Below, piece by piece: positions 1 to 18,919 of a DNA stretch of 48,993 bases. The notes beneath the pieces are model-generated. The model ran no database searches, was not told the DNA's origin, and saw only the letters and a list, made by a program, of their open reading frames with translations. The stretch comes from an uncultured Clostridia bacterium. Its GTDB lineage: Bacteria > Bacillota > Clostridia > Oscillospirales > Oscillospiraceae. Positions within the stretch are counted from its first letter, which is position 1, and each line of letters begins with the position of its first letter. Position numbers and translations under genes: made by a program. The stretch spans positions 1-48,993 of the forward strand of contig CAMVJF010000001.1 of the NCBI GenBank assembly GCA_947167725.1, given 5' to 3'.

Positions 1-971
1 CATTTTCAACGGCCAGCGGCGCGATCCAGAGCACGGCGAGCTCCGTCTGGAACTCCGTCAGCTCTACAACGTCGAGCCTCTGGAGCTCTATCCAGAACGC
101 GATCGGCAGCAAGATCCAAGCGGCGCAGAACACAGTCAGCAGCGTGACCGGTACGATCAAGAACGTGACGAGCTCCGCATGGAACGCCGTCAGCTCTACG
201 ACGTCGAGTATCTGGAACAGCGTCACGAGCACGATCAGCAGCAAAGTGAACAGCGCAAAGAGCACCGTTTCGAGCGTGTTCAACAGCATAAAGTCCACAA
301 TCAGCAGCACGCTGAACGGGGCATTCAGCACCGTGCAAAACATTTTCAACAACATTCAGAACTCGATCACGAATAAGATCAACGCAGCAAAAACAGCGGT
401 AAGCAATGCGATCAGCGCAATAAAAAGCGCGTTTAATTTCTCGTGGAGCCTGCCGAGTTTGAAGCTGCCGCATATAAGCATAACCGGTAGTTTTTCGATA
501 AAACCGCCGAGCGTCCCGCACTTCGGGATCAGCTGGTACAAAAAGGGCGGTATCTTAACAGAGCCGACGATCTTCGGAGCTGCCGGAAACAATCTGCTCG
601 CAGGCGGTGAGGCTGGAGCCGAGGCCGTTCTGCCTCTGGCAGTCCTCTGGGATAAGCTGGAGTCAATTCTGCGGGCAATCCTCAGACAAGAGCAGTCGCA
701 GGCACCGGAAACAGATCCGGACACCAGCCTGCTGCAAAAGGCCGGTCAGCTTCTCACGCTTGACGACTTCTCGCTCGGTACCCTTGCAAATACCGGCGGC
801 ACCGTGATTTATTACGACTTCTCCGGGCTCACATGGGCGCCGCAGATCCAGACCGCGGGCAGCGCAGAGGACGAGCCGGATCTCATGGCAGAGCTGAGGG
901 CGCACGAGGCCGAGTTTTTCGACTGGCTGGAGGAATTTATAAAAATGCGGGAGGTGGCGCAGTTTGCGTAG
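1..971 (+). CDS. Tape measure protein, C-terminal part (same ORF as 43514..48993, continued across the circular junction; codon phase starts at nt 3)
   Basis: The reading frame is open from nt 3 to the TAG at 969-971 and is in phase with the ORF running off the window end. It continues the 44-aa repeats (xGTIKNVxSSAWNAVSS...). The C-terminal part SLPSLKLPHISITGSF...GISWYKKGGILTEPTIFGA is typical of tape measure C-termini. Confidence 0.9.
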   Translation, partial: FSTASGAIQSTASSVWNSVSSTTSSLWSSIQNAIGSKIQAAQNTVSSVTGTIKNVTSSAWNAVSSTTSSIWNSVTSTISSKVNSAKSTVSSVFNSIKSTISSTLNGAFSTVQNIFNNIQNSITNKINAAKTAVSNAISAIKSAFNFSWSLPSLKLPHISITGSFSIKPPSVPHFGISWYKKGGILTEPTIFGAAGNNLLAGGEAGAEAVLPLAVLWDKLESILRAILRQEQSQAPETDPDTSLLQKAGQLLTLDDFSLGTLANTGGTVIYYDFSGLTWAPQIQTAGSAEDEPDLMAELRAHEAEFFDWLEEFIKMREVAQFA

Positions 972-4791: not shown

Positions 4792-5613
4792 ATGGCAGGT
4801 ATGAAACTATCAGAGCTCGACTTTGTGCGGCTGCTGCCTGCATTTATGAGGGACGACGAGGCAGCGATCGCTCTCTGCAAAGCCGTGAACGAGGTCGTCG
4901 GCCCGCCGTGCGGCAGGCTGAAAACGATCCGGACATGGGATCAGATCGACAACTTGAACGAGGCAGAGTGCGACGAAATGGCGTGGGAGCAGGACGTGGA
5001 CTGGTACGACTCCGCAGGCATGACGCTGGAAGAAAAACGCGCCACGATCAAGCTCGCGCAGCAAATCAAGCGAAAGCGCGGCACGAAATGGGCGGTGGAG
5101 CGGCTGATCTCCGCATACATCGGAGACGGCTATGTGCTGGAGTGGTACGATCTCGACGTCGAGGGCTTCACGGCTCCCTATACTTTTTTAGCGCTCACGA
5201 CAAACGCGGCGATCGACCAAGAGAGCTACGCGAAATTCGTCGAGGCGGTGAAAGCCGCCAAAAACGAGCGCTCTCACATAGCGGGCGTGTTTTATTTCTG
5301 GCAGCAGGGCCCGGATCCCGGCGTCGAGTGCGCTATGGGGTACGCTGCGTATCAATACGAATTTGAGCGGATCTGCGGCACATACCCCCGCGAGGCGGTG
5401 GTGGGCGCTCTGGGGCGCTTTGCCGCGGAGACAGAGCCGGAGACAGCGGCTCACTTTTACGGCTTCACAGAGGCCGGAGAGGACACCTGCGGCACATACC
5501 CGTCAAGCGGGACGATCGGCGCCGCACTATCAGCAGCGGCAGCGGCAGAGGAAACGCTCGCAGCCTTCGGCTATACGCTGACAAGGTGCGGGACGCTTCA
5601 CTGTGGCGAGTAA
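4792..5613 (+). CDS. Tail protein I-like (P2 gpI / XkdU)
   Basis: 273 aa directly after baseplate J. N-terminal LLPAFMRDDEAAIAL and ...AWEQDVDWYD...KRATIKLAQQIKRKRGTKWAVERL fit the gpI family pattern. Confidence 0.65.
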   Translation: MAGMKLSELDFVRLLPAFMRDDEAAIALCKAVNEVVGPPCGRLKTIRTWDQIDNLNEAECDEMAWEQDVDWYDSAGMTLEEKRATIKLAQQIKRKRGTKWAVERLISAYIGDGYVLEWYDLDVEGFTAPYTFLALTTNAAIDQESYAKFVEAVKAAKNERSHIAGVFYFWQQGPDPGVECAMGYAAYQYEFERICGTYPREAVVGALGRFAAETEPETAAHFYGFTEAGEDTCGTYPSSGTIGAALSAAAAAEETLAAFGYTLTRCGTLHCGE

Positions 5614-5634
5614 AAAGGAAGGAGGCGCAGCTCT

Positions 5635-5946
5635 ATGGCTTATTTTCAGAGCAATTTCTTGAACTACCGTAGGCAGCAATGGCTCCGATCTCTGGTACAC
5701 GTCGAGGCACAAGTCGGCTCGACATGGTACCGCGGAACCATAAACCAGAAGAAGATCGAGGGCGACACGCTCGTCATTATGGTGACATTTCCGCAGCTTG
5801 ACAACAGCGCGGTGACGATCAGCGCGTCGCGTGTGATTGATATTCGCGGGGAGATCGCAGCATACCAGACGCGAACGATCCGCAAAGTGGCCGGGCAGGG
5901 CACCATGATCAAGATCACGATCCCGATCTACGAGGTAACAAGCTGA
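5635..5946 (+). CDS. Hypothetical protein in the tail fibre region
   Basis: Strong RBS GGAAGGAGG upstream, 103 aa, tight spacing with neighbouring genes. Confidence 0.5.
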   Translation: MAYFQSNFLNYRRQQWLRSLVHVEAQVGSTWYRGTINQKKIEGDTLVIMVTFPQLDNSAVTISASRVIDIRGEIAAYQTRTIRKVAGQGTMIKITIPIYEVTS

Positions 5947-6719: not shown

Positions 6720-7817
6720 ATGGCAAATTTTGATCTCACAAATCTGGCAGTAAAAATGATCTGCCCGAACAACACCGTCCAGCTGGACGACACCGGGTTG
6801 CCGTCGGTGCTGGTGTATATCCCGGCATTTAAGAACAGCGACGTCCTCACCGGCGGCGACGACAGCACGCACCCCGCCTTCATCGTGAACGGCGTCCAGA
6901 TCCCCGGCTTCTACTACTCGAAGTATCAGAACAAAGTGAACAGCGGCGTCGCCTATTCGCTGCCGGCAGAGGATCCGACTGCAAATATTACATTTGACAC
7001 CGCGATCGCTCGCTGCACCGCAAAGGGCGCCGGCTGGCACCTCAGCACGAACGCGGAGTGGGCAGCGATCGCTCTCTGGTGCAAGAAAAACGGCTTTTTG
7101 CCCTATGGCAATAACAACTACGGCAAGGACTCCAGAGAGAGCAACTACCGCGCGATCCCGACAACCAAGGACGGCAGCGGGAACACGCTCCATGTGGCAA
7201 CCGGCACTGGCCCGCTCTCGTGGAGCCACGATCAGACGCCGAGCGGTATCTGGGACATGAACGGCAATGTCGCAGAATGGCAGGGCGGTATCCGTCTTGT
7301 ATGGGGCGAGCTCCAGATCCTTGCAAACAATGACGCAGCGGATCCGGACAACCCGCAGAACGCGACAAGCACCTGCTGGAAGGCGATCAACGCCAGCACC
7401 GGCGCGCTGGTGGATCCGGAATGCAGCACAACAGACGCGACCGGCACAACGTCCGGAAACACGGTGCGCCTCGATTATGTGAGCAGCAAGTGGAAATTTG
7501 TCACCAGCATTTCGAGCGCTGCGGACAGCTCGCGGAACTGCAATTTCGGCGCCGTAACTGCCGACAGCACGATCGGCGACGCTGCAAAGGTGCTGCTGCG
7601 CGCGCTCGCTCTGCTGCCGGACTCTGACGCACAGGAAGCAGACTACGAGGGCGACGTCATGTACTGGAATAACGGCGTAGCCGAGCGCTGCGTGTATCGC
7701 GGGGGCTCCTGCGGCCACGGGGTGTCCGCGGGCGTTTTCTGCGTCGACGGCTATCCCCGCTCGAACTCGGGCGCGAACATCGGCTTCCGCTCCGCTTATA
7801 TTCCGGAAATCGGGTAA
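6720..7817 (+). CDS. DGR target protein: tail fibre-associated receptor-binding protein with a C-terminal FGE/C-type-lectin-like fold carrying the variable region
   Basis: 365 aa. Motifs GWHLSTNAEWAAIALWC and IWDMNGNVAEW are typical of the formylglycine-generating-enzyme-type CLec fold. The last ~40 codons form the VR that matches the TR at 8261-8377. Confidence 0.85.
   Translation: MANFDLTNLAVKMICPNNTVQLDDTGLPSVLVYIPAFKNSDVLTGGDDSTHPAFIVNGVQIPGFYYSKYQNKVNSGVAYSLPAEDPTANITFDTAIARCTAKGAGWHLSTNAEWAAIALWCKKNGFLPYGNNNYGKDSRESNYRAIPTTKDGSGNTLHVATGTGPLSWSHDQTPSGIWDMNGNVAEWQGGIRLVWGELQILANNDAADPDNPQNATSTCWKAINASTGALVDPECSTTDATGTTSGNTVRLDYVSSKWKFVTSISSAADSSRNCNFGAVTADSTIGDAAKVLLRALALLPDSDAQEADYEGDVMYWNNGVAERCVYRGGSCGHGVSAGVFCVDGYPRSNSGANIGFRSAYIPEIG
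7683..7796 (+). repeat. DGR variable region (VR)
   Basis: 114 nt alignable to the TR at 8261-8377. There are 13 substitutions, every one at a TR adenine, plus one 3-nt gap. Identical GC-rich 3' end cggcttccgctccgct. Confidence 0.9.
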
Positions 7818-7842
7818 TCTGGCGATCTGAAAATCTGGCAAA

Positions 7843-7864
7843 CGGCGGCGACGCTTCGCCGCCG
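7843..7864 (+). promoter_or_regulatory. GC-rich hairpin 3' of the VR (candidate DGR target-recognition hairpin and/or terminator)
   Basis: CGGCGGCG(acgctt)CGCCGCCG: an 8-bp GC stem 47 nt after the VR end and 26 nt after the target stop codon. No U-tract follows. Confidence 0.55.
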
Positions 7865-7884
7865 GCACCATTCACGAGGTAACA

Positions 7885-8229
7885 ATGGACACACTACAAC
7901 TCAGACAGAGGATCGTCAGATCCATGATCCGCGTGAGCGAACGCACCAACAGCATGAGAAAGCCGGAGAAATTCGTCTACCGGGAACGCTTGACGGGCAC
8001 CTACATGAATATGCTCCGGCTATGTATCAAAGCGAACCATTCACGCGGGCCGGCACGGCGTCAGCTCCAGAACGAGATCGACACCGAGCTCGACGTGCTG
8101 CGCTCGCTTATTGACACCGCAGCGAGCCCGGAGGATCGTCTGATCTCCACCGGGCTGCACGAGGTATGGAGCAAGGAGCTAAACGAAATCGGGCGTATGC
8201 TCGGCGGCTGGATCAAGTCAAACGACTGA
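7885..8229 (+). CDS. avd: DGR accessory variability determinant (Avd-like four-helix-bundle protein)
   Basis: 114 aa, basic, predicted all-helical. Sits between the VR and TR, as avd does in Bordetella phage BPP-1. C-terminal ...LNEIGRMLGGWIKS resembles four-helix-bundle (Avd / 23S-IVS protein) family ends. Confidence 0.7.
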   Translation: MDTLQLRQRIVRSMIRVSERTNSMRKPEKFVYRERLTGTYMNMLRLCIKANHSRGPARRQLQNEIDTELDVLRSLIDTAASPEDRLISTGLHEVWSKELNEIGRMLGGWIKSND

Positions 8230-8260
8230 CCGCCCGTGGGGGATATGCCGAGAAAATCGG

Positions 8261-8377
8261 GAGCGCTGCGTGTATCGCGGGGGCAACTACAACAACGGGG
8301 TGAACGCGGGCGTTTTCTACGTCAACGGCAACAATCCCCGCTCGAACTCGAACGCGAACATCGGCTTCCGCTCCGCT
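8261..8377 (+). repeat. DGR template region (TR)
   Basis: 117 nt matching the VR. Carries 25 adenines, mostly in AAC (Asn) codons when read in the VR frame (NYNNGVNAGVFYVNGNNPRSNSNANIGFRSA). Confidence 0.9.
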
Positions 8378-8639
8378 CTGGCTTTACTCGTTAGGCCCGC
8401 GGGCTACGGCTCGGCGGGAACAATAAAGCAAAAGGGGCGTATCTCCCGGCCAAAAGGCCAAAGATACCGCCCGCCACCAGCGGACAACCGGGGCGACGGG
8501 CAAAACCGCGTAGACTGGCCGCTCTCGGCAAACGAGTGGAGCCCTGCCCGGCGGCCGCGGGGTAGCGTCTGCGGATCAAGGGCAGAGGCAAGGAGCGTCA
8601 CGCGCGGCGCTATTATTATGAAACAAAGGAGGGCACACC
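8378..8639 (+). ncRNA. DGR RNA spacer region between TR and RT (non-coding, structured)
   Basis: No credible ORF with an RBS. Nested hairpin GGCGTATCT..GGCC-aaaa-GGCC..AGATACCGCC at 8435-8471. The position corresponds to the self-priming spacer of characterised DGR RNAs. Confidence 0.5.
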
Positions 8640-9725
8640 ATGGAGGAAGGCAAGGCGCCGTCTCTTTTGGAGCGGATTTACTCGTGGGACAATCTCATGG
8701 AAGCATACCACGAGGCAGGCCGCGGCAAATGGTACCGGGGCGACGTGACGTCCTTCACGGCAAATCTGGAGGAAAATCTGATCAGCATACAAAACGATCT
8801 GATCTGGCACACATACAAGGTGGGACGGTACCGGGAGTTTTATGTGCAGGAACCGAAGAAGCGCCTCGTCATGGCTCTGAGTTTTCGCGATCGCGTCGTT
8901 CAATGGGCGATCTATCGGCAGATAAACGACGAGCTCGACAACTGCATGATTTTTCACAGCTACGGGTGCAGAGTCGGAAAAGGAACCACCAGATCAGCCG
9001 ACAAGCTCCAAGACTGGTGCACCCTCGTGGGACGTAAGCAGCAGCCGTGGTATTATCTGAAACTTGACATTTCAAAGTATTTTTACCGGGTGGATCACAC
9101 CGTTCTGCTCGGTATCATGGAGAGGAAATACCCGGACGAGGACGGCTTTCTGTGGCTCATGCGCGAGATCGTCAACTGTGACCACACACCCTTCGGACTA
9201 CCGCCCGGCAAGAATGCCGACGAGGTGCCGCCGCCCGAGAGGCTTTTCGAGGTGGGAATGCCGATCGGCAACCTCACCAGCCAACTGCTCGCGAACGTCT
9301 GCCTCAACGAGCTGGATCAGTACATAAAGCACGAGCTCCGCGCGCACTACTACGTCCGCTACATGGACGACATGGTGCTGCTGCACCCGGATCCGAAGGT
9401 ACTCAACGAGTGGCGCGTGCTGATCGAGGACTATCTCAACAATGTGCTGAGGCTGGAGCTCAACGGCAAGACCGCGATCGGGCTCGTGAAGAACGGGATC
9501 ACGTTTGTGGGCTGCCGCATTTTTCCGGGGTACCGCAGAATGACGGCGAAGTCCGTCAAGAAAATGAAGAAGCGTATGCAATACATAGCGAAGGAATACC
9601 AAGCCGGGCTAATCGACTTCGACGCCGTAGACGCTACAATGCAGAGCTATTTCGGGCTTATGGGGCATTGTGCCACCAAAGGGCTCCAGAAATGGATCGA
9701 ACAAAATATAGTTTTCAAGGGGTGA
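8640..9725 (+). CDS. DGR reverse transcriptase
   Basis: 361 aa with RBS AAGGAGGG upstream. RT motifs: KLDISKYFYRVDH, IGNLTSQLLANVCLNELD (DGR-type [IL]GxxxSQ) and catalytic YVRYMDDMVLL. Confidence 0.9.
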   Translation: MEEGKAPSLLERIYSWDNLMEAYHEAGRGKWYRGDVTSFTANLEENLISIQNDLIWHTYKVGRYREFYVQEPKKRLVMALSFRDRVVQWAIYRQINDELDNCMIFHSYGCRVGKGTTRSADKLQDWCTLVGRKQQPWYYLKLDISKYFYRVDHTVLLGIMERKYPDEDGFLWLMREIVNCDHTPFGLPPGKNADEVPPPERLFEVGMPIGNLTSQLLANVCLNELDQYIKHELRAHYYVRYMDDMVLLHPDPKVLNEWRVLIEDYLNNVLRLELNGKTAIGLVKNGITFVGCRIFPGYRRMTAKSVKKMKKRMQYIAKEYQAGLIDFDAVDATMQSYFGLMGHCATKGLQKWIEQNIVFKG

Positions 9726-10460: not shown

Positions 10461-12002
10461 ATGGCATTGATAGGCAAGAACAACGAGGAAAAGATCTGGA
10501 ACTTCCTCACCGGCAAGGGGCTGAGCGCTCACGGAGCTGCCGGCCTCATGGGTAATCTGTACGCGGAGAGCGCGCTCGAACCCATGAATTTGCAGAACAC
10601 CTACGAGAAAAGCCTCGGCTATACTGACGCCGGCTACACGGCGGCGGTGGACTCCGGGAAATATACCAATTTCGTGCACGACTCCGCAGGCTACGGCCTC
10701 GCACAATGGACATACTACACCCGCAAAGAGGCGCTGCTGAAATATGCGAAAGCTGCCGGCGCCTCGATCGGAGATCTGGAGACGCAGCTCGGCTTTTTAT
10801 ACAAAGAGCTCAGCAGCGGCTACCCGGCTTTACTCTCCACGCTCAGAACTGCCGCCACCGTGCGCACAGCGTCGGACGCCGTTCTGACAATCTACGAGCG
10901 CCCGGCTGATATGTCGGAGCGCGTAAAGGTACAGCGCGCGAACTTCGGGCAAAAGTACCTCGACAAATACGGCAGCGCCGTGACTCCGACGCCGGAACCA
11001 AGCACCGGGGGGAGCTGCACAGCGGCGGCTCTGCTCGCGATCGCAGCGGCAGAGATCGGGTACCATGAGAAGGCGTCGAACGCAAACCTCGACAGCAAGA
11101 CCGGGAACTCCGGCGCCGCGAACTTCACGAAATACTCCCGCGATTTGGCAGCGGCCGGCTATTACAACGGGAACAAGCAGGGCGTGGCGTGGTGTGACGT
11201 GTTCGTGGACTGGTGCTTCTACCAGCTGGCAGGCAGGAACGCAAAGAAGGCGCAGGAAATCGAGTGCCAGACCGGGCCGCTCGGCGCCGGCTGCCTCTAC
11301 TCTATGCAATACTACCAGCAGCAGGGGCGCTTCTATACATCGAACCCGCAGCCGGGCGACCAAGTTTTCTACCAGTCCGGCGGCTCTATCAGTCACACCG
11401 GCATTGTCGAGAGCGTGAACGGCTCGACCTTCACGACCATTGAAGGCAATGCAAGCGATCAAGTTATGCGCTGCAAGCGCAAAATGAACGACGGCTACAC
11501 CTACGGCTTCGGCCGCCCGAAGTACGACGCGGGGACAGACTCTGCGCCGACAGAGCCGGCACAGCCGAGCACACCGCTGAAATACAAGATCGGGGACGTC
11601 GTGAACTTCTCCGGCTCGGTGCATTATGTGAGCTCCAACGCCGCGAACGGATCCAACTGCAAGCCCGGCAAGGTGAAGATCACCGCCGTGTATGCGAGCG
11701 GCAAGCACCCGTACCACGCGATCGCAGAGGCAGGCGGCGGCTCTACGGCATACGGCTGGGTGGACACTGACAAGCTGAGCCCGATCACGGAGATCAAGAT
11801 CGGCGACGCCGTGAAGTTTAAGGGCGGCCCGCACTATGCGAGCTCGACCGCTGCGGCAGACTCCGGATCCCCGAAAGCCGGCCCCGCTACCGTGACAGCG
11901 ATCGCGAAGGGCGCAAAGCACCCGTACCACGTCGTACACACGGACAAGCAGTCCACCGTCTACGGCTGGGTGGACGCTGCCCTCGTGGAGAAAACGCAAT
12001 GA
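10461..12002 (+). CDS. Multidomain endolysin: N-terminal phage lysozyme-like domain, central CHAP domain, two C-terminal SH3-like repeats
   Basis: N-terminus GAAGLMGNLYAESALEP...YGLAQWTYYTRK (phage tail lysozyme-type). Middle NGNKQGVAWCDVFVDWC...SHTGIV...IEGNAS (CHAP Cys/His). Two C-terminal ~70-aa repeats, KIGDxVxFxG..HY.SS...YGWVD. Confidence 0.85.
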   Translation: MALIGKNNEEKIWNFLTGKGLSAHGAAGLMGNLYAESALEPMNLQNTYEKSLGYTDAGYTAAVDSGKYTNFVHDSAGYGLAQWTYYTRKEALLKYAKAAGASIGDLETQLGFLYKELSSGYPALLSTLRTAATVRTASDAVLTIYERPADMSERVKVQRANFGQKYLDKYGSAVTPTPEPSTGGSCTAAALLAIAAAEIGYHEKASNANLDSKTGNSGAANFTKYSRDLAAAGYYNGNKQGVAWCDVFVDWCFYQLAGRNAKKAQEIECQTGPLGAGCLYSMQYYQQQGRFYTSNPQPGDQVFYQSGGSISHTGIVESVNGSTFTTIEGNASDQVMRCKRKMNDGYTYGFGRPKYDAGTDSAPTEPAQPSTPLKYKIGDVVNFSGSVHYVSSNAANGSNCKPGKVKITAVYASGKHPYHAIAEAGGGSTAYGWVDTDKLSPITEIKIGDAVKFKGGPHYASSTAAADSGSPKAGPATVTAIAKGAKHPYHVVHTDKQSTVYGWVDAALVEKTQ

Positions 12003-12169
12003 TCCGGGGCATGGCAGCCGTGATCCTCATCGTCGGCGGCTTTATCACGTTTGTGGGGTGGCTGCACGGCGTCCTTAATTCGGACGGCCGGTGCGATCCC
12101 GGCGCAGACTGTGAGAGCTGCCCGTTTCCGTGCGAGCACCACGAGAGGAAACGCAGGAACAAGAAATAA
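11999..12169 (+). CDS. Small membrane protein with Cys-rich C-terminus (56 aa, below the ORF-track cutoff)
   Basis: ATG overlaps the endolysin stop (ATGA at 11999-12002). MIRGMAAVILIVGGFITFVGWLHGVLNSDGRCDPGADCESCPFPCEHHERKRRNKK: one TM segment plus a CxxxxxCxxCxxxC tail. Last gene of the late/lysis operon. Confidence 0.45.
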   Translation: MIRGMAAVILIVGGFITFVGWLHGVLNSDGRCDPGADCESCPFPCEHHERKRRNKK

Positions 12170-12216
12170 ACAGAACACCGTCCACGAGCTCTCAGCGGCT
12201 CGCTGGACGCATGGCA

Positions 12217-12250
12217 AGAGCCCGGAGGGTGTAACAACCTTCCGGGCTCT
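12217..12250. other. Inverted repeat between convergent lysis and integrase genes (candidate attP core and/or bidirectional terminator)
   Basis: AGAGCCCGGA (12217-12226) and TCCGGGCTCT (12241-12250): 10-bp perfect arms around a 14-nt spacer, in the only non-coding gap next to the int 3' end. Confidence 0.4.
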
Positions 12251-12270
12251 CTCTGCGTCTACAAACGCTG

Positions 12271-13875
12271 TTATTTGCGAATTTTGCACACGACCGCGAC
12301 AACCTTCTCGAAGAAATACAAGATCGTCGCCGAGGTGTTCAATTTCGCGCAATTTGGTGGAGCTGACCGCGCGAAAGCTGAACACTCAGGATCCGCGCAG
12401 TTTGTGGCATTCTCCACGAGCTCCAGCGTCACCTTGCAATTATCGCCGGAGTAATTCAGCACGAGGGTGAGTTTGTCGTCGTACAGATAGGCGGCATTCA
12501 AGAACACACCGACAAGCAACTGCCGGTAGCTCTCGTCGTCCACGTCGCCGCCTCTGAAACGCTCCAGAAAATAAACGATCTGATCGCGCTCCAGATCCGG
12601 CTCGGCGATAAGCTGCTGAGCGATCCCCGTCTCGATCTGCGCCTTCTCAGCTTCGAGCTGCACGAGCCGGGACTTTGTGGACGGGGTAATGATCCCCGCC
12701 TCGATCGCTGCGATCATGTTCTGGATCGCCTTCTCGTTCTCACGCTGCCGGGCTTCGAGGGCGTGGAGGGCGCTCTGATCCTTCTCGCGCTTCTGGTACT
12801 CCATGCAGCGATCCGCGACCTCGTTTATAAATTCATCGGAGTGGATCAGCTTCACCAGCTCGTCGATCACCAGCTGCTCGATCCAGTCCTTCGGCGCCCT
12901 CTCTTTGTCGCATTTCCGGCGCTTCCTATTGTTACAAGTGTAATAGTGATACACGCGGCCGGTTTTACTCGTGCCGCCGTCGCCGGTCATAGGCTCGCCG
13001 CAATGGCCGCAGAACAGCTTCGACGTGAGCAGGAAGGACACGTCCCGCGCCGCTGCCGGTGAATGGTGGTGCGTGGCGAGCATACTCTGGCATTTGTCGA
13101 ACAGCTCCCGGCTCACGATCGGCGGGATCCCGTGCTCGTCTCGAATATCCTTGTATTGATAAACGCCGACGTATTTCTCATTTTTCAGAATGTGCCGTAA
13201 ACTGTTTTTATTGAACAGCCCGCCGCGGCTCGTCCGGTACCCCTCATTATTCAGCCGGGTGTAAATATCTTTTGCAGGCTCTCCGGCTGCGTATTCCTCG
13301 AAGATCCGGAGCACGATCGGAGCTGTTTCCGGATCAATCTCGAACCGCCCGTCCGGGCCCTTCCTCAGACCTAACACTTTGTAGCCGAGTGTTTTCCGCT
13401 CCAGAGCGCTGTCATAATTGCCGCGCTTTATGTTTTGGCTGAGGTTTTCGCTGTAATACTCCGCGTAGCCTTCCATGACCGACTCCAGAATAATGCCCTC
13501 CGGGCCTTCTGGGATCGCCTCTTTTGCGTAGTATACGCGGACGCCGTTCTTTTTGAGTTTATACTTGTATGTGGCTGAGTCGTACCGGTTACGGGCGAAC
13601 CGGTCAATTTTCCAGCAGATCACAGCCTTGAACACGCCGCGCTCTGAGTCCCGGAGCATTCTCTGAAAGTCCGGGCGTTTATCCGTGCGGCCGGTGAGAG
13701 CTTTGTCGGTGTATTCTCCGATAATGCGGAACCCATTCCGCGCCGCCCATGCTCTGCACTCGCGGAGCTGCCCCTCGATACTTTCTTCACGCTGCCCGCT
13801 GCTGGAGTATCTGGCATAGATCACGGCGGGGATCAGAGCGGGATCCGGAGCGGCTGCTGTTTTCTTCCTGCTCAT
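12271..13875 (-). CDS. Large serine recombinase (phage integrase)
   Basis: N-terminal resolvase catalytic domain AVIYARYSSSGQREESIEGQ...WKIDRFARN, then a recombinase domain and a zinc-ribbon CGHCGEPM...YYTCNNRKRRKC, then a coiled coil. The ATG at 13875 overlaps the upstream stop (ATGA). Confidence 0.9.
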   Translation of the reverse strand: MSRKKTAAAPDPALIPAVIYARYSSSGQREESIEGQLRECRAWAARNGFRIIGEYTDKALTGRTDKRPDFQRMLRDSERGVFKAVICWKIDRFARNRYDSATYKYKLKKNGVRVYYAKEAIPEGPEGIILESVMEGYAEYYSENLSQNIKRGNYDSALERKTLGYKVLGLRKGPDGRFEIDPETAPIVLRIFEEYAAGEPAKDIYTRLNNEGYRTSRGGLFNKNSLRHILKNEKYVGVYQYKDIRDEHGIPPIVSRELFDKCQSMLATHHHSPAAARDVSFLLTSKLFCGHCGEPMTGDGGTSKTGRVYHYYTCNNRKRRKCDKERAPKDWIEQLVIDELVKLIHSDEFINEVADRCMEYQKREKDQSALHALEARQRENEKAIQNMIAAIEAGIITPSTKSRLVQLEAEKAQIETGIAQQLIAEPDLERDQIVYFLERFRGGDVDDESYRQLLVGVFLNAAYLYDDKLTLVLNYSGDNCKVTLELVENATNCADPECSAFARSAPPNCAKLNTSATILYFFEKVVAVVCKIRK

Positions 13876-14768
13876 GGCTTCCAGTTTGTGCAACGGTTTG
13901 AGCCGTGCTTATTCAGCAGATCGGTGACTTCATCGTCTGGGAACTGGATCCGGAGCTCAGAGACGCCGGAGGGAGAAACGACCGTCAGAAACTCGGCACC
14001 GTGCGGCACAGCTATGAACTGCCCGCCCTCGTTCATGACGTTATCGTCTGTGTACTTCCGCAGCAGATAGGTGTAAACCTTCTTTTTGGCAACTTCCAAG
14101 AGCCCGGCGGGACGAATGAACGCAAAGCGAGGATAAACGAGCGGGACAACCTCGGAGGCGTGAGCAAGGCACCACTCAAACTTTGCTTTTTTGGTGCTTT
14201 TAATCTCTGCTGGGAATGAAAAGCCGAGAGCTTCCAGCTTTTCGAGCGTCATTTTCTGAGTGTGCTCGCGGAGTGCCTGCTCGTCGTTCTGGTACGTTTC
14301 GACAAGCCCGTCTGCGATCGCCTTCTGCATAATTTCGGTGTTTTCGCACGGGCAGCTTTTCCCGGTGTTATGGAGGTACATCATTTCCCGGATTTTGCTT
14401 TGCGCCTCGTCGGTGTATGTTTCAAGCAATTCAACAGCGCGAGCGAGCGCCTGCTTTCTCTCCGAAGAAGTGGGGGTGGGCGCTTTTACCGCTTTGGAGT
14501 CAGAGGAAACAGCTCCGGCAGACATGAGCCCGCACTCGATCGCGAGTCTGTAAATGTGTTTGCACGGCTGCTTCCTGCGTGAGAAGTCCACACAAGTGCA
14601 AGCTGCCAGCGTCGTATTATAAAGACCATGAGAGCCGGAGAATGTCGCCGCCCCCGCGTTTTTGTCGATAGAAACCGGAGTGTTTTCTGCTTTTATGGCC
14701 GAGCTGATCCGCTTCTGCTGCTCTGGATCGGAGTGCATTCCGTCCCATTTCTTCCACATATTCTGCAT
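13872..14768 (-). CDS. SWIM zinc-finger protein, translationally coupled to the integrase
   Basis: The start at 14768 (MQNMWKKW) follows GAAAGTGAGG. SWIM signature CTCVDFSRRKQPCKHIYRL (CxC...CxH). About 298 aa, remainder unrecognised. Confidence 0.6.
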   Translation of the reverse strand: MQNMWKKWDGMHSDPEQQKRISSAIKAENTPVSIDKNAGAATFSGSHGLYNTTLAACTCVDFSRRKQPCKHIYRLAIECGLMSAGAVSSDSKAVKAPTPTSSERKQALARAVELLETYTDEAQSKIREMMYLHNTGKSCPCENTEIMQKAIADGLVETYQNDEQALREHTQKMTLEKLEALGFSFPAEIKSTKKAKFEWCLAHASEVVPLVYPRFAFIRPAGLLEVAKKKVYTYLLRKYTDDNVMNEGGQFIAVPHGAEFLTVVSPSGVSELRIQFPDDEVTDLLNKHGSNRCTNWKP

Positions 14769-14783
14769 AACGACCTCACTTTC

Positions 14784-14813
14784 TCCCGCCGTTTGGCGGG
14801 ATTTTATTTTTTT
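14784..14813 (+). terminator. Rho-independent terminator oriented on the plus strand
   Basis: TCCCGCC-gttt-GGCGGGA stem (14784-14801) followed by TTTTATTTTTTT (14802-14813). Confidence 0.5.
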
Positions 14814-14891
14814 GAAATTTAATAATTCGACACACTTCACCCGGCTGCTTTTTTGCGATATTGCCAGAACAAACAGAAAAATCTACATAAA

Positions 14892-15260
14892 TCACACGGC
14901 CGACTCTTTTTTGACCGCTGGCCGCCTATTGCACCTCAGCACCATGAGCGCGGACTCTCTGGCCGAGTCTGTGGCCTCTCGCCACGCTTGCAAAATCTCT
15001 GCTTCATCGTTTTGCACCACAACGCCCTCACCGGGCGGGTGCATACCTTCCAGCGGATCGTCAGTCCAGCACATCAAGTAAGCCGGTGAGCAATGCAGAG
15101 CCTTCGCGAACAGCTCCACGGTGTTCGTGTAGACGTTTTTGATCACGTTCTTCTCGTACTTCTGAATAGCCGATCGGCTGACTCCGACAACGGCGCCGAC
15201 TTCTTCCAGAGTCAACCCCATGTCGAGACGGCGCTGTTTCATTCTCTCAGAGCTAAACAA
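14892..15260 (-). CDS. XRE/CI-like HTH repressor
   Basis: TTG start at 15260, 6 nt after AGGGAGGG. HTH LTLEEVGAVVGVSRSAIQKYEKN. Divergent from the early operon. Confidence 0.75.
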   Translation of the reverse strand: MFSSERMKQRRLDMGLTLEEVGAVVGVSRSAIQKYEKNVIKNVYTNTVELFAKALHCSPAYLMCWTDDPLEGMHPPGEGVVVQNDEAEILQAWREATDSARESALMVLRCNRRPAVKKESAV

Positions 15261-15292
15261 GAAAAGCCCTCCCTTCGTTTCATAATACCCTA

Positions 15293-15321
15293 ATTATACC
15301 ACAAAAAACACTGCAAAGCAA
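15293..15321 (-). promoter_or_regulatory. Leftward (repressor) promoter
   Basis: On the minus strand: TTGCTT, 17-nt spacer, TGgTATAAT (extended -10). Lies upstream of the repressor RBS. Confidence 0.55.
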
Positions 15322-15351
15322 CAATTTTTGAAAAAAATTTTCATTTGTGGC

Positions 15352-15380
15352 TTGACAAGCTACAAAAATGATGATATAAT
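15352..15380 (+). promoter_or_regulatory. Rightward early promoter
   Basis: Perfect consensus TTGACA (15352-15357), 17-nt spacer, TATAAT (15375-15380), 65 nt upstream of the Cro-like gene. Confidence 0.65.
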
Positions 15381-15445
15381 TATACATGAACCGGGGGAGC
15401 CGGGCCAAAACGAACAAGACGACAAGCCGAAAAGGAGGCGAGAAC

Positions 15446-15661
15446 ATGGTAAACACCACGGAGCTGCGCGTTTATATGACACGGCGCGACAATATGACGA
15501 TCTCAGAACTGGCGAAGGCAATCGGGAAAAGCCCCGCAACTGTGAGCCGCTGGTTTGAAAACAGGGATATGCCGGTAAGCTACGCCGAGACAATCGCGAA
15601 GATCCTCGAAATCCCTCAGAAGGAAATGATCTCAATTTTTTTTGCTAACTTTGTAGCGTGA
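15446..15661 (+). CDS. Cro-like / HTH early regulator
   Basis: ATG at 15446 follows AAAGGAGG. HTH MTISELAKAIGKSPATVSRWFEN. First gene of the rightward operon. Confidence 0.65.
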   Translation: MVNTTELRVYMTRRDNMTISELAKAIGKSPATVSRWFENRDMPVSYAETIAKILEIPQKEMISIFFANFVA

Positions 15662-15691
15662 CACGCTACAAGATAGAAGGAGGGCACCGAC

Positions 15692-16066
15692 ATGAAAGAC
15701 GTTAAGATCGTAGCAACAGACAACCGCACCTATCTGGTGAGAGCCACCACGAGGCGCTTCGGAGAGGACGCGGTGCTGTTTGAGAGCTGGAAGTGGAGCG
15801 ACTGCCTCGACTATCTGAGGCGCCTCGGTATCGAGTACACGGGCAAGCGCCCGGCGTTTCCTCGTCACAGAGCGAACGGCACGACGATCACCCGGCACCC
15901 CGACCGCTGGAACCCCGCAAAGGTTTGGCTCGTCAAGCGCTACGCCGACGGGCACTACGCACTCAATCAAGAGATCAGCGGCTTTGTGTTCTACACGAAA
16001 TACCAGCGCGCGCCGCTCTGGTACATCGAGCAGATCCTCACAGGCTACACCCGCCAAATGAACTAA
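15692..16066 (+). CDS. Hypothetical early protein
   Basis: RBS GAAGGAGGG upstream, 124 aa. Confidence 0.55.
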   Translation: MKDVKIVATDNRTYLVRATTRRFGEDAVLFESWKWSDCLDYLRRLGIEYTGKRPAFPRHRANGTTITRHPDRWNPAKVWLVKRYADGHYALNQEISGFVFYTKYQRAPLWYIEQILTGYTRQMN

Positions 16067-16086
16067 CCGCAGAAAAGGAGCAGGCT

Positions 16087-16686
16087 ATGAACATTAAAGA
16101 ATTTTCCGACCGTACCGGCTTTTATCCGTCTTTTGAGCTCTACACCGTGATCGAGGCGCACTACATGGAGCAGTCCGGGGACAAGGACGCATTTTGTAAG
16201 GCGTACAAAGAGAACGCCGACGGGCTCGCCGAGAAGATCCAGCAGGAGGCGGCAATGCTCGCCCTCAACAATCAGAGCCGCATGATCGCAGCGGCGAACG
16301 AGCTCAGAGCCGAGAACGAAACCCTCAAAGAGCAGGCCGAGCGGCTGATCGCTCAGCTGGAGCGCGAGCAGGAGTGGAAACCCTTCGGGCACAACAGCAG
16401 CATGAAGGACGACGACTACGCGAGACTTTGCCAGAGCGGCAGAACCATGACCGACGACGAGGCCGTGGAGCTGATCGCCTCAGAGTTTGGCTTTGCGCCG
16501 GAGAAGATCGAGATCGTGCGCCAAATCAAGACATACGAGGTCAGCCGGCACCGCCAGCTCAGACAGAAGGGCACGATCGACCGGCTGCCGGTATACGACG
16601 CGACCGACTGGAACTACGTCCGCTTCGACTGTGCCGGCTGGCAGTACGAAATGATCAACGGGCAGCTGCACCCCTTCAATGACTGA
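16087..16686 (+). CDS. Hypothetical early protein with a coiled-coil centre
   Basis: ATG at 16087 follows AAAGGAG. 199 aa, with a heptad-like segment AANELRAENETLKEQAERLIAQLEREQE. Confidence 0.55.
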   Translation: MNIKEFSDRTGFYPSFELYTVIEAHYMEQSGDKDAFCKAYKENADGLAEKIQQEAAMLALNNQSRMIAAANELRAENETLKEQAERLIAQLEREQEWKPFGHNSSMKDDDYARLCQSGRTMTDDEAVELIASEFGFAPEKIEIVRQIKTYEVSRHRQLRQKGTIDRLPVYDATDWNYVRFDCAGWQYEMINGQLHPFND

Positions 16687-16698
16687 GGGGGTGCGGAC

Positions 16699-16950
16699 AT
16701 GACGAGCAAGACGCTTGAAAAATACGCGCTTTTGAAAGCAATGCACCAAATCGTCCGCAGCCTAAACAATGAGGGCGCATACTACGACCGCTGGATCCTC
16801 ATTATCCCGGACAAGGCGACAGACGAAGAACTCTACGACATTGCCGAGGACGAGGACGACGAGATCTTCCGCGACTCTGTGAAATGCTTCGAGGGTATCA
16901 TGAAAGACTACATCGACGACGGGCTATATGTGGCCGGTAAATTGTACTGA
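16699..16950 (+). CDS. Hypothetical small acidic protein
   Basis: RBS GAGGGGG upstream, 83 aa, D/E-rich (EELYDIAEDEDDEIFRD). Confidence 0.5.
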   Translation: MTSKTLEKYALLKAMHQIVRSLNNEGAYYDRWILIIPDKATDEELYDIAEDEDDEIFRDSVKCFEGIMKDYIDDGLYVAGKLY

Positions 16951-16962
16951 GGGGGCACCGAT

Positions 16963-18271: not shown

Positions 18272-18283
18272 GGGGGTGGCTCT

Positions 18284-18771: not shown

Positions 18772-18919
18772 AACACTACCCGCGCACGAGTCCGACGCGA
18801 TATGCCGGACGGTGCTCGGCTCCGTCTCCCGTTTATTCGACGATCCGGCCGTTCTGGCCGACTACAAACGCTGGAAGAAGGAACGCCAGCGAGAAAAGGA
18901 GCAGAACAATGACACATGA
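18722..18919 (+). CDS. Hypothetical small protein
   Basis: Strong RBS AAAGGAGG upstream, 65 aa. Confidence 0.5.
   Translation: MKTAQSTALADVSVDLETLPAHESDAICRTVLGSVSRLFDDPAVLADYKRWKKERQREKEQNNDT

What the first reader, a model, noticed from the sequence alone, without database searches (positions are those of the whole stretch)
6720..9725. Complete diversity-generating retroelement (DGR) targeting a tail fibre-region receptor-binding protein
All four DGR parts are present in the order seen in Bordetella phage BPP-1 (mtd-avd-TR-brt):
- A target gene (6720-7817) whose last ~40 codons form a 114-nt variable region (VR, 7683-7796).
- An Avd-like accessory gene (7885-8229).
- A 117-nt template region (TR, 8261-8377).
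- A reverse transcriptase (8640-9725) with YMDD and the DGR-type IGNLTSQ motif.

Aligning TR to VR gives 13 substitutions, and every one is at a TR adenine (for example AAC to TCC, GGC, CAC or GAC, and TAC to TGC). No non-A position differs.

Read in the VR frame, the TR is rich in AAC codons (NYNNGVN..YVNGNN..SNSNAN). The target carries FGE/C-type-lectin-fold motifs (GWHLSTNAEW, IWDMNGNVAEW).

This indicates a phage that hypermutates its receptor-binding surface. DGRs in high-GC Firmicutes-type myoviruses with lambda-like heads are poorly characterised.
Basis: partly seen in the sequence, partly recalled or inferred. Interest (0 to 1): 0.85.

Follow-up and report, generated by a model that had tools for sequence, protein, structure and literature searches.

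The report
Known-type phage DGR hypermutation cassette
This is a complete diversity-generating retroelement in a gut Clostridia phage related to Faecalibacterium phage Lagaffe; it rewrites the tip of a tail-module binding protein at adenine-templated positions, but the same cassette is already published for that relative.

Summary

The proteins fit a DGR:
- Avd passes NCBI's DGR-Avd model.
- The RT is closest to Bordetella phage BPP-1 Brt and keeps its catalytic and template-contact residues. It fails the group II intron, retron and Drt cut-offs.
- The target is homologous along its full length to the solved DGR variable protein TaqVP.

The noncoding parts also fit. A GC hairpin follows the VR. 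A covariation-supported RNA around the TR reproduces the BPP-1 layout.

A 98.7%-identical genome has an identical TR, but its VR differs at 19 positions, so diversification was recent.

The window is a circular ~48.9-kb genome, collinear with Faecalibacterium phage FP_Lagaffe (~70-76% nt). That phage's DGR was published in 2018 and 2024, so this is a new member of a known kind and of low interest.

One small lead: a (WCTG-N4)x3 repeat sits just 3' of the VR. It occurs once in this genome and twice in Lagaffe, once after each of its two VRs.

The parts
6720..7817 (+). DGR target gene (365 aa): an Mtd/TaqVP-like FGE-type C-type-lectin variable protein. It is the last gene of the tail/baseplate module.
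   Evidence: ORF. Pfam FGE-sulfatase PF03781, 31.1 bits against a cut-off of 23.3. phrog_2889, E 6.5e-133. PDB 5VF4 (TaqVP), E 5.6e-40 over residues 19-361. 77% aa identity to Lagaffe's 'BPP-1 major tropism-determinant-like protein'. The genes upstream are P2 J-like and I-like baseplate proteins.
7683..7796 (+). Variable region (VR), 114 nt, codons 322-359 of the target.
   Evidence: Alignment to the TR gives 13 of 13 mismatches at TR-A plus a one-codon gap. Among five 95-99%-identical genomes, the 100-nt bin 7700-7799, which holds most of the VR, is the most variable of 8.7 kb. 21 of 23 TR-A positions vary, against 10 of 91 non-A positions.
7782..7796 (+). GC-rich 3' end of the VR/TR homology (GGCTTCCGCTCCGCT). 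By position it corresponds to the (GC)14 part of the BPP-1 IMH.
   Evidence: Sequence checked. The homology to the TR ends exactly here. The BPP-1 IMH definition is from PMC3240598. The role is inferred.
7818..7837 (+). VR-specific flank repeat TCTGgcgaTCTGaaaaTCTG, that is (WCTG-N4)x3. It is a candidate target-site or directionality element.
   Evidence: It is the only match in the 49-kb window, against 0.06 expected. In the Lagaffe genome there are exactly two matches, one after VR1 and one after VR2. With N3-4 spacing, 46 of 63 VR-bearing loci have it within 60 nt 3' of the VR, and only 1 hit lies elsewhere in 531 kb. The function is inferred.
7843..7864 (+). GC-rich inverted repeat CGGCGGCGA[CGCT]TCGCCGCCG (9-bp stem, 4-nt loop), 46 nt after the VR end. 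Predicted DGR hairpin/cruciform.
   Evidence: DNA fold. A perfect 6-12-bp GC stem starts 17-29 nt after the stop codon in 20 of 23 related sequences, with 15 different arm sequences. The BPP-1 precedent is in PMC3240598.
7885..8229 (+). avd, the accessory variability determinant (114 aa).
   Evidence: NCBIfam NF033474 DivGenRetAVD, 87.6 bits against a cut-off of 80. Pfam bAvd PF22296, E 8.4e-16. phrog_3206 'Avd protein of DGR', E 4.7e-35.
8238..8249 (+). 5' strand of the long-range RNA duplex that encloses the TR. It pairs with 8436-8447 and is the predicted equivalent of the BPP-1 'cPRT Stop' duplex.
   Evidence: RNAalifold helix of 12 pairs, 100% paired in 23 sequences, 4 pairs with compensatory changes. 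The BPP-1 element is described in bioRxiv 10.1101/2023.10.23.563531.
8261..8377 (+). Template region (TR), 117 nt, with 25 adenines in 15 codons (10 of them AAC/AAT).
   Evidence: It is identical (117/117) in the 98.7%-identical genome L084, although the VRs differ. It shares a 23-nt identical stretch with the BPP-1 TR.
8381..8429 (+). Stem-loop just 3' of the TR, capped by the UACG tetraloop at 8405-8408. Predicted Avd-binding stem-loop.
   Evidence: Helices 8-10: 16 pairs, 100% paired, 8 pairs with compensatory changes. In BPP-1 the Avd-binding element is an 11-bp stem capped by a UNCG loop at the 5' end of Sp.
8428..8435 (+). GCAAAAGG block, nearly invariant in 23 relatives. Predicted primer strand and priming adenosine (most likely A8433, opposite U8377, the last TR/VR-homologous base).
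   Evidence: Column conservation. The position, two nucleotides before the Stop-duplex strand, matches BPP-1 Sp A56. The register is inferred and is not resolved by covariation.
8436..8462 (+). 3' strand of the Stop duplex (8436-8447), then the short stem-loop GGCC-AAAA-GGCC (8448-8459), then AAA (8460-8462).
   Evidence: The order is the same as in the BPP-1 cPRT Stop: duplex, short stem-loop, then unpaired adenosines that form A-minor contacts.
8469..8607 (+). Distal structured part of the spacer RNA (helices 12-19). Probable RT-binding domain. The whole spacer is 262 nt, against 140-144 nt in BPP-1.
   Evidence: Helices 12, 13 and 17-19 carry compensatory changes. The role is inferred.
8640..9725 (+). 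DGR reverse transcriptase (361 aa).
   Evidence: Pfam RVT_1, E 6.3e-20. phrog_1423, E 1.6e-139. The best PDB match is 8ub7, which is BPP-1 Brt, at E 1.5e-41. D143, D243, D244, I209, G210, Q215 and K30 align with Brt D138, D215, D216, I181, G182, Q187 and K29.

Best explanation
Window 6720-9725 is a complete BPP-1-type diversity-generating retroelement in a temperate Lagaffe-like phage of gut Clostridia.

**Proposed mechanism**
1. A transcript runs from just after avd, through the TR, into the 262-nt spacer. It folds so that a 12-bp duplex (8238-8249 with 8436-8447) closes off the TR.
2. A UACG-capped stem-loop next to the TR binds Avd.
3. An invariant A-rich strand (8430-8433) lies against the TR 3' end and primes cDNA synthesis in cis.
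4. The RT-Avd complex copies the TR faithfully except at its 25 adenines.
5. The cDNA replaces the homologous 114-117 nt at the 3' end of the target gene. It is guided by the shared GC-rich end, by the VR-specific flank (WCTG repeats) and by the downstream GC hairpin.
6. This re-randomises up to 15 codons (about 6e14 protein variants) on the ligand-binding face of a C-type-lectin-fold protein encoded at the end of the tail module. That protein is most likely the receptor-binding protein.

**Shown here:** the parts, their family assignments, the adenine-only TR/VR pattern, RNA covariation, and recent VR turnover between near-identical genomes.

**Inferred by analogy with BPP-1:** the priming site, the roles of individual RNA and DNA elements, and the ligand.
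For: **TR/VR pair**
- 13 of 13 mismatches fall at TR-A, P = 2.6e-11.
- In 55 distinct TR/VR pairs from related loci, 764 of 807 mismatches (94.7%) fall at TR-A.

**Proteins**
- Avd is above the curated DGR-Avd cut-off.
- The RT is closest to Brt, and the catalytic and T-site residues are conserved.
- The RT is below the cut-offs for group II (102.9 vs 300), retron (44 vs 235) and Drt3a (41.9 vs 200).
- The target is homologous to TaqVP (5VF4), and the two VRs align.

**Conserved layout**
- The order target-avd-TR-RT is kept in the related viral loci that extend far enough to include all the genes.

**RNA around the TR**
- 93 pairs are 98% paired, against 38-47% in slid controls.
- 30 pairs carry compensatory changes, against 5-10 in slid controls.
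- The element order matches the BPP-1 RNP structure.

**Target site**
- A GC hairpin after the VR is structurally conserved, with 15 different arm sequences.

**Recent activity in the lineage**
- L084 is 98.7% identical over 11.5 kb and has an identical TR. Its VR differs from the window's at 19 positions plus a codon indel.
- 22 of the 148 differences in 8.7 kb lie in the 114-nt VR.
- Non-A differences between the TRs of the two subclades are mirrored in their own VRs.

**Published precedent**
- The homologous Lagaffe DGR shows read-level VR variability (PMC5883640).
Against: - No reads or experiments exist for this genome, so activity in this particular phage is not shown. In one study the Lagaffe prophage DGR gave no read-level signal (PMC11792537).
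- The hairpin departs from the BPP-1 rules. Its loop is CGCT rather than GRNA, and it lies 46 nt from the VR end rather than 4-34 bp.
- There is no recognisable IMH/IMH* pair of similar 21-bp sequences. The VR and TR flanks are unrelated right after the shared GC-rich end.
- The AlphaFold model of the target was too poor to confirm the fold (pLDDT 43).
- Virion location and ligand of the target are unknown.
- L084's VR carries 3 non-A mismatches to its TR.
Confidence: 0.93

Rival explanations
1. The cassette is structurally intact but currently silent in this genome. The VR state would be inherited from earlier activity, and the element would do nothing at present.
For: The Lagaffe prophage and another DGR-bearing prophage showed no read-level VR variation in the 2024 study, whose authors suggest temporary inactivation (PMC11792537). 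Nothing in a single assembled sequence can show ongoing activity.
Against: - All ORFs are intact.
- The catalytic residues are conserved.
- The TR retains all 25 adenines.
- The RNA structure is conserved.
- A 98.7%-identical genome already carries a different VR on an identical TR, so turnover is faster than 1.3% background divergence.
- A decayed example (L011, whose TR has lost its adenines) looks clearly different.
Confidence: 0.15
2. The diversified protein is not the host-receptor-binding protein. It could be another adhesin, for example one that binds mucus or other environmental glycans, or a protein that is not part of the virion.
For: - Function is inferred only from gene position and from homology to Mtd and TaqVP.
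- TaqVP itself lacks a surface-targeting signal.
- Lagaffe carries a second homologous target in its early-gene region, far from the tail genes.
- Other Faecalibacterium phage DGRs target Hoc-like capsid decoration proteins.
Against: - The gene directly follows the P2 J-like and I-like baseplate genes and three small conserved ORFs, and it precedes the lysis genes. This is the usual tail-fibre slot, and it is conserved in Lagaffe.
- BPP-1 Mtd, a homologue with the same VR placement, is the experimentally shown tropism determinant.
Confidence: 0.25
3. The RT belongs to a group II intron, a retron or an RT-based defence system, and the TR/VR similarity is an ordinary partial duplication of the gene's 3' end.
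For: NCBIfam's best-scoring RT model is group II intron RT/maturase (102.9 bits). That library has no DGR-RT model.
Against: - That score is far below the 300-bit cut-off. Retron and Drt scores are lower still.
- No group II intron, retron msr/msd or any other Rfam family matches anywhere in the window.
- Brt is the best solved relative by 28 orders of magnitude in E-value.
- A DGR-specific Avd lies next to the RT.
- Ordinary divergence cannot put 13 of 13 differences on adenines of one copy only (P = 2.6e-11). Nor can it reproduce that pattern in 55 related pairs.
Confidence: 0.01

Closest known systems
DGR of Faecalibacterium phage FP_Lagaffe (MG711461 / NC_047911; Lagaffevirus lagaffe)
   Same: - The genome is collinear at about 70-76% nt identity.
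- The cassette has the same order at the same place, between the baseplate and lysis genes.
- Protein identities are 77% (target), 75% (Avd) and 80% (RT).
- It has the same WCTG repeat and a hairpin after the VR.
- It has the same spacer-RNA architecture.
- Its DGR is published with read-level VR variability (PMC5883640) and with a second VR (PMC11792537).
   Different: - The window has a single target. The second FGE-type target of Lagaffe (31798-33060) and its surrounding module are absent.
- The integrase is a serine recombinase, not Lagaffe's IS30-type enzyme.
- The hairpin loop is the 4-nt CGCT, where Lagaffe has the 7-nt CCACCAA.
- The window's VR lacks one codon relative to its TR.
- The closest prophage found in a genome is in a rabbit-gut Clostridia MAG, so the host may not be Faecalibacterium.
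Bordetella phage BPP-1 DGR (mtd-avd-TR-brt), the prototype
   Same: - Same four parts in the same order.
- The RT is homologous to Brt, with conserved catalytic and template-contact residues.
- The VR lies at the 3' end of a CLec-fold target.
- A 23-nt stretch of the TR is identical.
- A GC-rich hairpin lies downstream of the VR.
- The RNA elements come in the same order: UNCG-capped stem-loop, primer strand, Stop duplex, short stem-loop, adenosines, distal stem.
   Different: - The hairpin lies 46 nt from the VR end with loop CGCT. In BPP-1 it lies 4 bp away with loop GAAA.
- There is no 21-bp IMH/IMH* pair. The flank carries WCTG repeats instead.
- The upstream strand of the Stop duplex lies after the avd stop codon, not inside avd.
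- The spacer is 262 nt, against about 140 nt.
- The host is a Gram-positive anaerobe and the virion is a myovirus-type particle with a P2-like baseplate.
Thermus aquaticus DGR variable protein TaqVP (PDB 5VF4)
   Same: It is the best solved relative of the target (E 5.6e-40, residues 19-361 against 26-384). It has the FGE-type CLec fold with the VR at the extreme C-terminus, and the two VRs align.
   Different: TaqVP is a chromosomal, apparently intracellular, monomeric protein of a thermophile. The window protein is encoded in a phage tail module.

Membership tests
Diversity-generating retroelement (DGR) | Template/variable repeat pair whose differences lie (almost) only at adenines of the template copy | tested here: met
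   13 of 13 mismatches fall at TR-A, P = 2.6e-11. The same pattern holds in 55 related pairs, where 764 of 807 mismatches are at A.
Diversity-generating retroelement (DGR) | RT of the DGR clade: motif [LIV]GxxxSQ, YxDD, and closest to Brt rather than to group II, retron or defence RTs | tested here: met
   IGNLTSQ and YMDD are present. The best PDB hit is Brt at E 1.5e-41, against 4e-13 for a group II RT. The RT is below the cut-offs of TIGR04416, NF038233 and NF041747. No formal phylogeny was built.
Diversity-generating retroelement (DGR) | Accessory protein Avd (BPP-1-type DGRs) | tested here: met
   NF033474 equivalog, 87.6 bits against a cut-off of 80. PF22296. phrog_3206.
Diversity-generating retroelement (DGR) | VR at the 3' end of a target ORF with a C-type-lectin (FGE-type) fold, with the variable residues on the binding face | tested here: met
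   The VR covers codons 322-359 of 365. Sequence homology to the solved CLec protein TaqVP includes its VR. Pfam FGE-sulfatase matches. The 3D model was too poor to show surface exposure.
Diversity-generating retroelement (DGR) | IMH at the VR 3' end: a GC-rich stretch shared with the TR, plus a related but mismatched 21-bp IMH/IMH* pair that sets directionality | tested here: inconclusive
   A GC-rich shared end is present (7782-7796). Beyond it, the VR and TR flanks show no similarity. A VR-specific WCTG repeat may fill the role, but this is untested.
Diversity-generating retroelement (DGR) | GC-rich inverted repeat (7-10 bp stem) downstream of the VR | tested here: met
   A 9-bp GC stem lies at 7843-7864. 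Its position is conserved in relatives, with 15 different arm sequences.
Diversity-generating retroelement (DGR) | 4-nt GRNA hairpin loop, 4-34 bp from the VR (phage DGR consensus of Guo et al. 2011) | tested here: not met
   The loop is CGCT and the stem starts 46 nt after the VR end. Lagaffe-like relatives have 7-9-nt loops. More distant relatives keep GATA or GAGA loops. This is a consensus, not a strict requirement of the family.
Diversity-generating retroelement (DGR) | DGR RNA architecture: an upstream:spacer 'cPRT Stop' duplex, an Avd-binding tetraloop stem-loop next to the TR, and a stem-loop plus adenosines after the duplex | tested here: met
   Covariation analysis on an alignment that was not fitted to any structure. 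Comparison.
Diversity-generating retroelement (DGR) | Demonstrated RT-dependent mutagenic retrohoming | not testable with these tools
   Only a proxy is available. VR turnover at TR-A positions separates genomes that are 98.7% and about 95% identical, while the TR stays constant or co-varies with its own VR.
Genus Lagaffevirus | Genome-wide nucleotide similarity at genus level to Lagaffevirus lagaffe (a threshold of about 70% over the full genome, from my own knowledge of ICTV practice) | tested here: inconclusive
   Collinear blastn blocks of 69-81% identity cover most of the genome. The region at about 12-19 kb is unrelated. Intergenomic similarity was not computed formally.
Group II intron / retron / Drt defence RT systems | RT above the family cut-off, plus the cognate structured RNA (intron domains or msr/msd) | tested here: not met
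   Scores are 102.9 vs 300, 44 vs 235 and 41.9 vs 200 bits. There are no Rfam hits in the window.

The most novel reading that the evidence does not exclude
In this large lineage of Mtd-like-target DGRs, a short periodic repeat, (WCTG-N3-4)x3, lies immediately 3' of every VR and just before the hairpin. It may be the element that marks a sequence as recipient, playing the role of BPP-1's 21-bp IMH. It may also license remote targets. It would work together with hairpins whose loops have drifted away from the GRNA rule. I found no description of this repeat in the papers I read, but I did not search for it specifically.
Probability: 0.35. Interest if true: 0.4.

Novelty: new member of a known kind. 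Interest (0 to 1): 0.2.

Why it matters
As a discovery it matters little. DGRs are common in gut phages, and this cassette's closest cultured relative has been described twice.

Its value is as a clean, complete and well-resolved example:
- Five genomes at 95-99% identity carry distinct VR alleles, and the TR is either constant or evolves in concert with its own VR.
- Codon indels occur at tandem AAC codons.
- A covariation-supported RNA reproduces the BPP-1 ribonucleoprotein layout in a Gram-positive anaerobe phage.
- A sharply VR-specific flank repeat could be tested as a target-site determinant. That would be useful both for predicting remote DGR targets and for engineering DGR-based mutagenesis.

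Tried and rejected
- **Second VR.** I scanned both strands with the TR treated as A-tolerant, and ran tblastn with the window target and both Lagaffe targets. No second VR or target was found.
- **Rfam, tRNA and terminators.** Rfam at gathering thresholds found nothing in the window. ARAGORN found no tRNA or tmRNA. The promoter and terminator scan was not above shuffled expectation and was not used.
- **Structure of the target.** AlphaFold2 on a 31-sequence alignment gave mean pLDDT 43 and pTM 0.45. The homologues available were all at least 70% identical, so the alignment was too shallow. The model was discarded and no fold search was run.
- **Avd in the PDB.** A sequence search found no hit.
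- **Hairpin in bacterial genomes.** An exact-pattern search for the window-clade hairpin in genome contigs found nothing. Metagenome and viral scans gave only four contigs.
- **Hairpin covariation.** The MAFFT alignment of the VR-to-avd spacer did not align the hairpin arms column by column, so hairpins were scored per sequence instead.
- **cDNA pairing with the WCTG repeats.** I considered that the cDNA 5' end might pair with the repeats. The TR flank reads 'CTCTG' in the window clade. I dropped the idea because the flank is not conserved in Lagaffe-like relatives, which read 'CTCTTG'.
- **Codon indels.** I considered these as possibly novel, but slippage in AAC repeats is already discussed in the literature (PMC12875486).
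- **8UB7.** A paper search for this PDB code found nothing. The chain was identified as Brt by tblastn instead.

Full report
**1. Observation**

A gapped local alignment places the VR at 7683-7796 and the TR at 8261-8377. Of 114 aligned positions, 101 are identical, and all 13 substitutions fall where the TR has an adenine. The TR has 23 A among the aligned positions, so the hypergeometric probability of this is 2.6e-11.

The length difference (114 vs 117 nt) is one missing codon. One AAC of the TR's 'GGC AAC AAT' has no counterpart in the VR.

Read in the target's frame, the TR encodes ERCVYRGGNYNNGVNAGVFYVNGNNPRSNSNANIGFRSA. Its 25 adenines sit in 15 codons, 10 of which are AAC or AAT. None of these codons can become a stop. 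The repertoire is about 1e15 DNA variants and 6e14 protein variants. No second VR exists in the window.

**2. The proteins**

- **Avd.** It exceeds the curated cut-off of NCBIfam NF033474, 'diversity-generating retroelement protein Avd' (87.6 vs 80 bits). It also hits Pfam bAvd and phrog_3206, 'Avd protein of DGR'.
- **RT, closest relative.** The RT hits RVT_1. Its best solved relative is chain 8ub7_A (E 1.5e-41), against 3.9e-13 for the best group II intron RT and about 1e-11 for chains deposited as 'retron-type reverse transcriptase'. I confirmed by tblastn that 8ub7_A is BPP-1 Brt, at 100% identity to brt.
- **RT, conserved residues.** In that alignment, window D143, D243 and D244 match the Brt catalytic D138, D215 and D216. 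Window I209, G210, Q215 and K30 match I181, G182, Q187 and K29, which contact the template base, the incoming nucleotide and the template phosphate in the Brt-Avd-RNA structure.
- **RT, rival families.** Against NCBI's curated models it stays far below every rival cut-off: group II 102.9 vs 300, retron 44 vs 235, Drt3a 41.9 vs 200. Rfam finds no intron, retron or other RNA family in the window.
- **RT, distribution.** Distant relatives at 32-38% identity in species-representative genomes include Patescibacteria/CPR, Nanoarchaeota and Woesearchaeota.
- **Target.** It matches Pfam FGE-sulfatase and phrog_2889 (E 6.5e-133). It aligns over residues 19-361 with PDB 5VF4 (E 5.6e-40). 5VF4 is TaqVP, the FGE-type C-type-lectin variable protein of the Thermus aquaticus DGR. 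TaqVP's VR (residues 341-381) aligns with the window's VR.

**3. Genomic context**

The window ends with the same 55 nt with which it begins. A 98.7%-identical contig reads straight across the junction. The window is therefore a circular assembly of a genome of about 48.9 kb at 58.5% GC.

It is collinear with Faecalibacterium phage FP_Lagaffe (MG711461) at roughly 69-81% nt identity in blocks. The main exception is the region at about 12-19 kb.

The DGR sits in the same slot as in Lagaffe. It follows the P2 J-like and I-like baseplate genes and three small conserved ORFs, and it precedes two small ORFs of unknown function and the endolysin gene.

GenBank already annotates the Lagaffe genes as 'BPP-1 major tropism-determinant-like protein', 'Avd-like protein' and 'reverse transcriptase'. 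Cornuault et al. [quoted passage not shown] A 2024 study added a second VR in a second Mtd-like gene (PMC11792537).

The window lacks that second target. It also carries a serine integrase in place of Lagaffe's IS30-type enzyme.

The closest prophage in a bacterial genome is in a rabbit-gut Clostridia MAG (RT 94% identical). Relatives at about 80% lie in Lachnospiraceae, Oscillospiraceae and Ruminococcaceae genomes.

**4. How common it is**

- The target family has more than 4,600 clusters at 90% identity. Single clusters hold up to 12,825 distinct member sequences, as expected for a hypervariable protein.
- 153 relatives were found in IMG/VR.
- Among the 80 loci fetched, wherever enough flank is present the order target-avd-TR-RT recurs.
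- 55 distinct VR/TR pairs show 764 of 807 mismatches (94.7%) at TR adenines.

**5. Evidence for recent activity**

Four contigs are 95-98.7% identical to the window across the region.

- L084 (JAEEGL013327072.1) is 98.7% identical over 11.5 kb, and its TR is identical at 117 of 117 positions. Its VR nevertheless differs from the window's at 19 positions, and it has the full 117-nt length.
- 22 of the 148 differences in 8.7 kb fall inside the 114-nt VR.
- Across the five genomes, the 7700-7799 bin is the most variable of 87 bins (0.29).
- 21 of 23 TR-A positions vary, against 10 of 91 non-A positions.
- By my count from the listed columns, about six of those ten follow differences between the two subclades' TRs. 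This is concerted evolution, as TR-to-VR transfer predicts.
- Three of the five VRs carry codon indels at tandem AAC codons. The window and L003 have -3 at AAC-AAT/AAC, and L004 has +3 at AAC-AAC. Such slippage in AAC repeats is already discussed for DGRs (PMC12875486).

**6. Target-site DNA**

TR/VR homology ends at the GC-rich GGCTTCCGCTCCGCT (7782-7796). Beyond it the two flanks are unrelated.

A 9-bp GC stem with a 4-nt loop, CGGCGGCGA[CGCT]TCGCCGCCG, lies at 7843-7864. In 20 of 23 related sequences a perfect 6-12-bp GC stem starts 17-29 nt after the stop codon, with 15 different arm sequences. The structure is conserved, not the sequence. This matches the requirement shown for BPP-1 (PMC3240598).

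The loop and the distance depart from that paper's consensus of a GRNA tetraloop 4-34 bp from the VR. Lagaffe-like phages have CCACCAA(A) loops and the window clade has CGCT. More distant relatives keep GATA or GAGA loops.

Between the stop codon and the hairpin lies TCTGgcgaTCTGaaaaTCTG.
- The pattern (WCTG-N4)x3 occurs once in the 49-kb window, against 0.06 expected.
- It occurs exactly twice in the 48-kb Lagaffe genome, after VR1 and after VR2. The copy after VR2 lies inside coding sequence and has no avd downstream.
- With N3-4 spacing it lies within 60 nt 3' of the VR in 46 of 63 loci, and only once elsewhere in 531 kb.
- The 21-bp IMH of BPP-1 also contains TCTG...CCTG, and the second unit is lost in the TR's IMH* (my reading).

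I infer that the repeat is a recipient-site element. This is untested.

**7. The DGR RNA**

I aligned the stretch from the avd stop codon to the RT start codon in 23 non-identical relatives, using MAFFT without fitting to any structure. The consensus fold has 93 pairs.
- 98.0% of cells are paired, against 38-47% when partners are slid by 1-3 columns.
- 30 pairs carry compensatory changes, against 5-10 in the slid controls.
- No shuffle reached the observed values on four of the five measures.

In window coordinates, the elements after the TR are:

| Element | Coordinates |
|---|---|
| Stem-loop capped by UACG (tetraloop 8405-8408) | 8381-8429 |
| Nearly invariant GCAAAAGG | 8428-8435 |
| 12-bp duplex pairing 8436-8447 with 8238-8249, just upstream of the TR (4 covarying pairs) | 8436-8447 / 8238-8249 |
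| Short stem-loop GGCC-AAAA-GGCC | 8448-8459 |
| AAA | 8460-8462 |
| Distal structured domain | 8469-8607 |

This is the order seen in the cryo-EM structure of the BPP-1 RNP: an Avd-binding UNCG stem-loop, a primer strand ending in A56, two nucleotides, the avd:Sp 'cPRT Stop' duplex, a short stem-loop, A-minor adenosines, and then the RT-binding stem (bioRxiv 10.1101/2023.10.23.563531). The same authors predicted comparable elements in 207 of 278 Avd-type DGRs.

By analogy the priming adenosine is one of A8430-A8433. The most likely is A8433, opposite U8377, the last base of TR/VR homology. The register is an inference. The spacer is 262 nt, against about 140 nt in BPP-1.

**8. Verdict**

The finding is real and correctly interpreted. 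It is a complete, apparently functional BPP-1-type DGR whose lineage has diversified its target very recently.

It is a new member of a known kind, namely a single-target, serine-integrase relative of Lagaffe. It is not a poorly characterised class.

The receptor-binding role of the target is likely but inferred. The only mildly new lead is the VR-specific WCTG repeat, together with non-canonical hairpin loops.

A structure model of the target failed (pLDDT 43). The fold therefore rests on sequence homology to 5VF4.

Noticed in passing
window 1-55 and 48939-48993: The first and last 55 nt are identical, and a 98.7%-identical contig (L084) reads across the junction inside the tape-measure gene. 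The window is therefore a circularly closed assembly of a whole phage genome of about 48.9 kb. A 55-nt overlap looks like an assembler k-mer.
   Followed up: yes
window 7818-7837; L002 (Lagaffe) 22585-22604 and 32720-32739: The periodic repeat (WCTG-N4)x3 lies just 3' of the VR. It is unique in the window, against 0.06 expected. In the Lagaffe genome it occurs only after VR1 and VR2. Distant relatives use ACTG units with 7-8-nt spacing. It may be the equivalent of the BPP-1 21-bp IMH.
   Followed up: partly
window 7751 (VR) vs 8329-8331 (TR); L003 4961-5074; L004 4961-5080: VRs of near-identical genomes differ from their TR by whole codons at tandem AAC codons. The window and L003 have -3 nt, L004 has +3 nt, and L083 and L084 have none. 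The mutated VR no longer contains the tandem repeat, so slippage most likely happens while the TR is copied. The phenomenon is already mentioned in the literature (PMC12875486).
   Followed up: partly
window 7843-7864; related loci in alignment A1: The loop of the post-VR hairpin changes by clade. Distant relatives have GATA, GAGA or GGTA tetraloops (the GRNA consensus). Lagaffe-like phages have 7-9-nt CCACCAA(A) loops. The window clade has CGCT. In BPP-1, loop size and sequence were critical for homing.
   Followed up: partly
window 8270-9037; L002 23260-24573: A spurious 255-aa ORF starts inside the TR and runs through the structured spacer RNA. In GenBank the Lagaffe RT is annotated from 23260 (437 aa). 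Homology to all relatives, and a good ribosome-binding site, begin at 23428. The deposited RT start therefore probably overlaps the noncoding spacer RNA.
   Followed up: partly
L011 (IMGVR_UViG_3300045988_052626) 5550-5664: The 'TR' of this relative has lost most of its adenines. It reads like a mutagenised VR, and its mismatches to its own VR are not A-specific. It looks like a decayed DGR, or one whose TR was itself overwritten.
   Followed up: no
window ~12000-19000 vs L002 27000-33000: The lysogeny and early module is unrelated to Lagaffe's. The window has a serine recombinase (12271-13893, minus strand) in place of the IS30-type integrase. It lacks Lagaffe's second FGE-type DGR target. 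Another relative, L065, has a second VR about 4.6 kb upstream of its first (368-481).
   Followed up: partly
window 8342-8364; L087 (BPP-1) 1420-1442: The window TR and the BPP-1 TR share 23 identical nucleotides, TCGAACTCGAACGCGAACATCGG, which encode SNSNANIG. Both spacers also cap their first stem-loop with UACG. This is striking conservation between phages of Clostridia and of Bordetella.
   Followed up: partly
L039, L040, L046, L056, L070, L079, L080: Several related viral contigs encode the Mtd-like target but have no avd or RT within the downstream flank that was fetched. They may be remote targets, truncated contigs or DGR loss.
   Followed up: no
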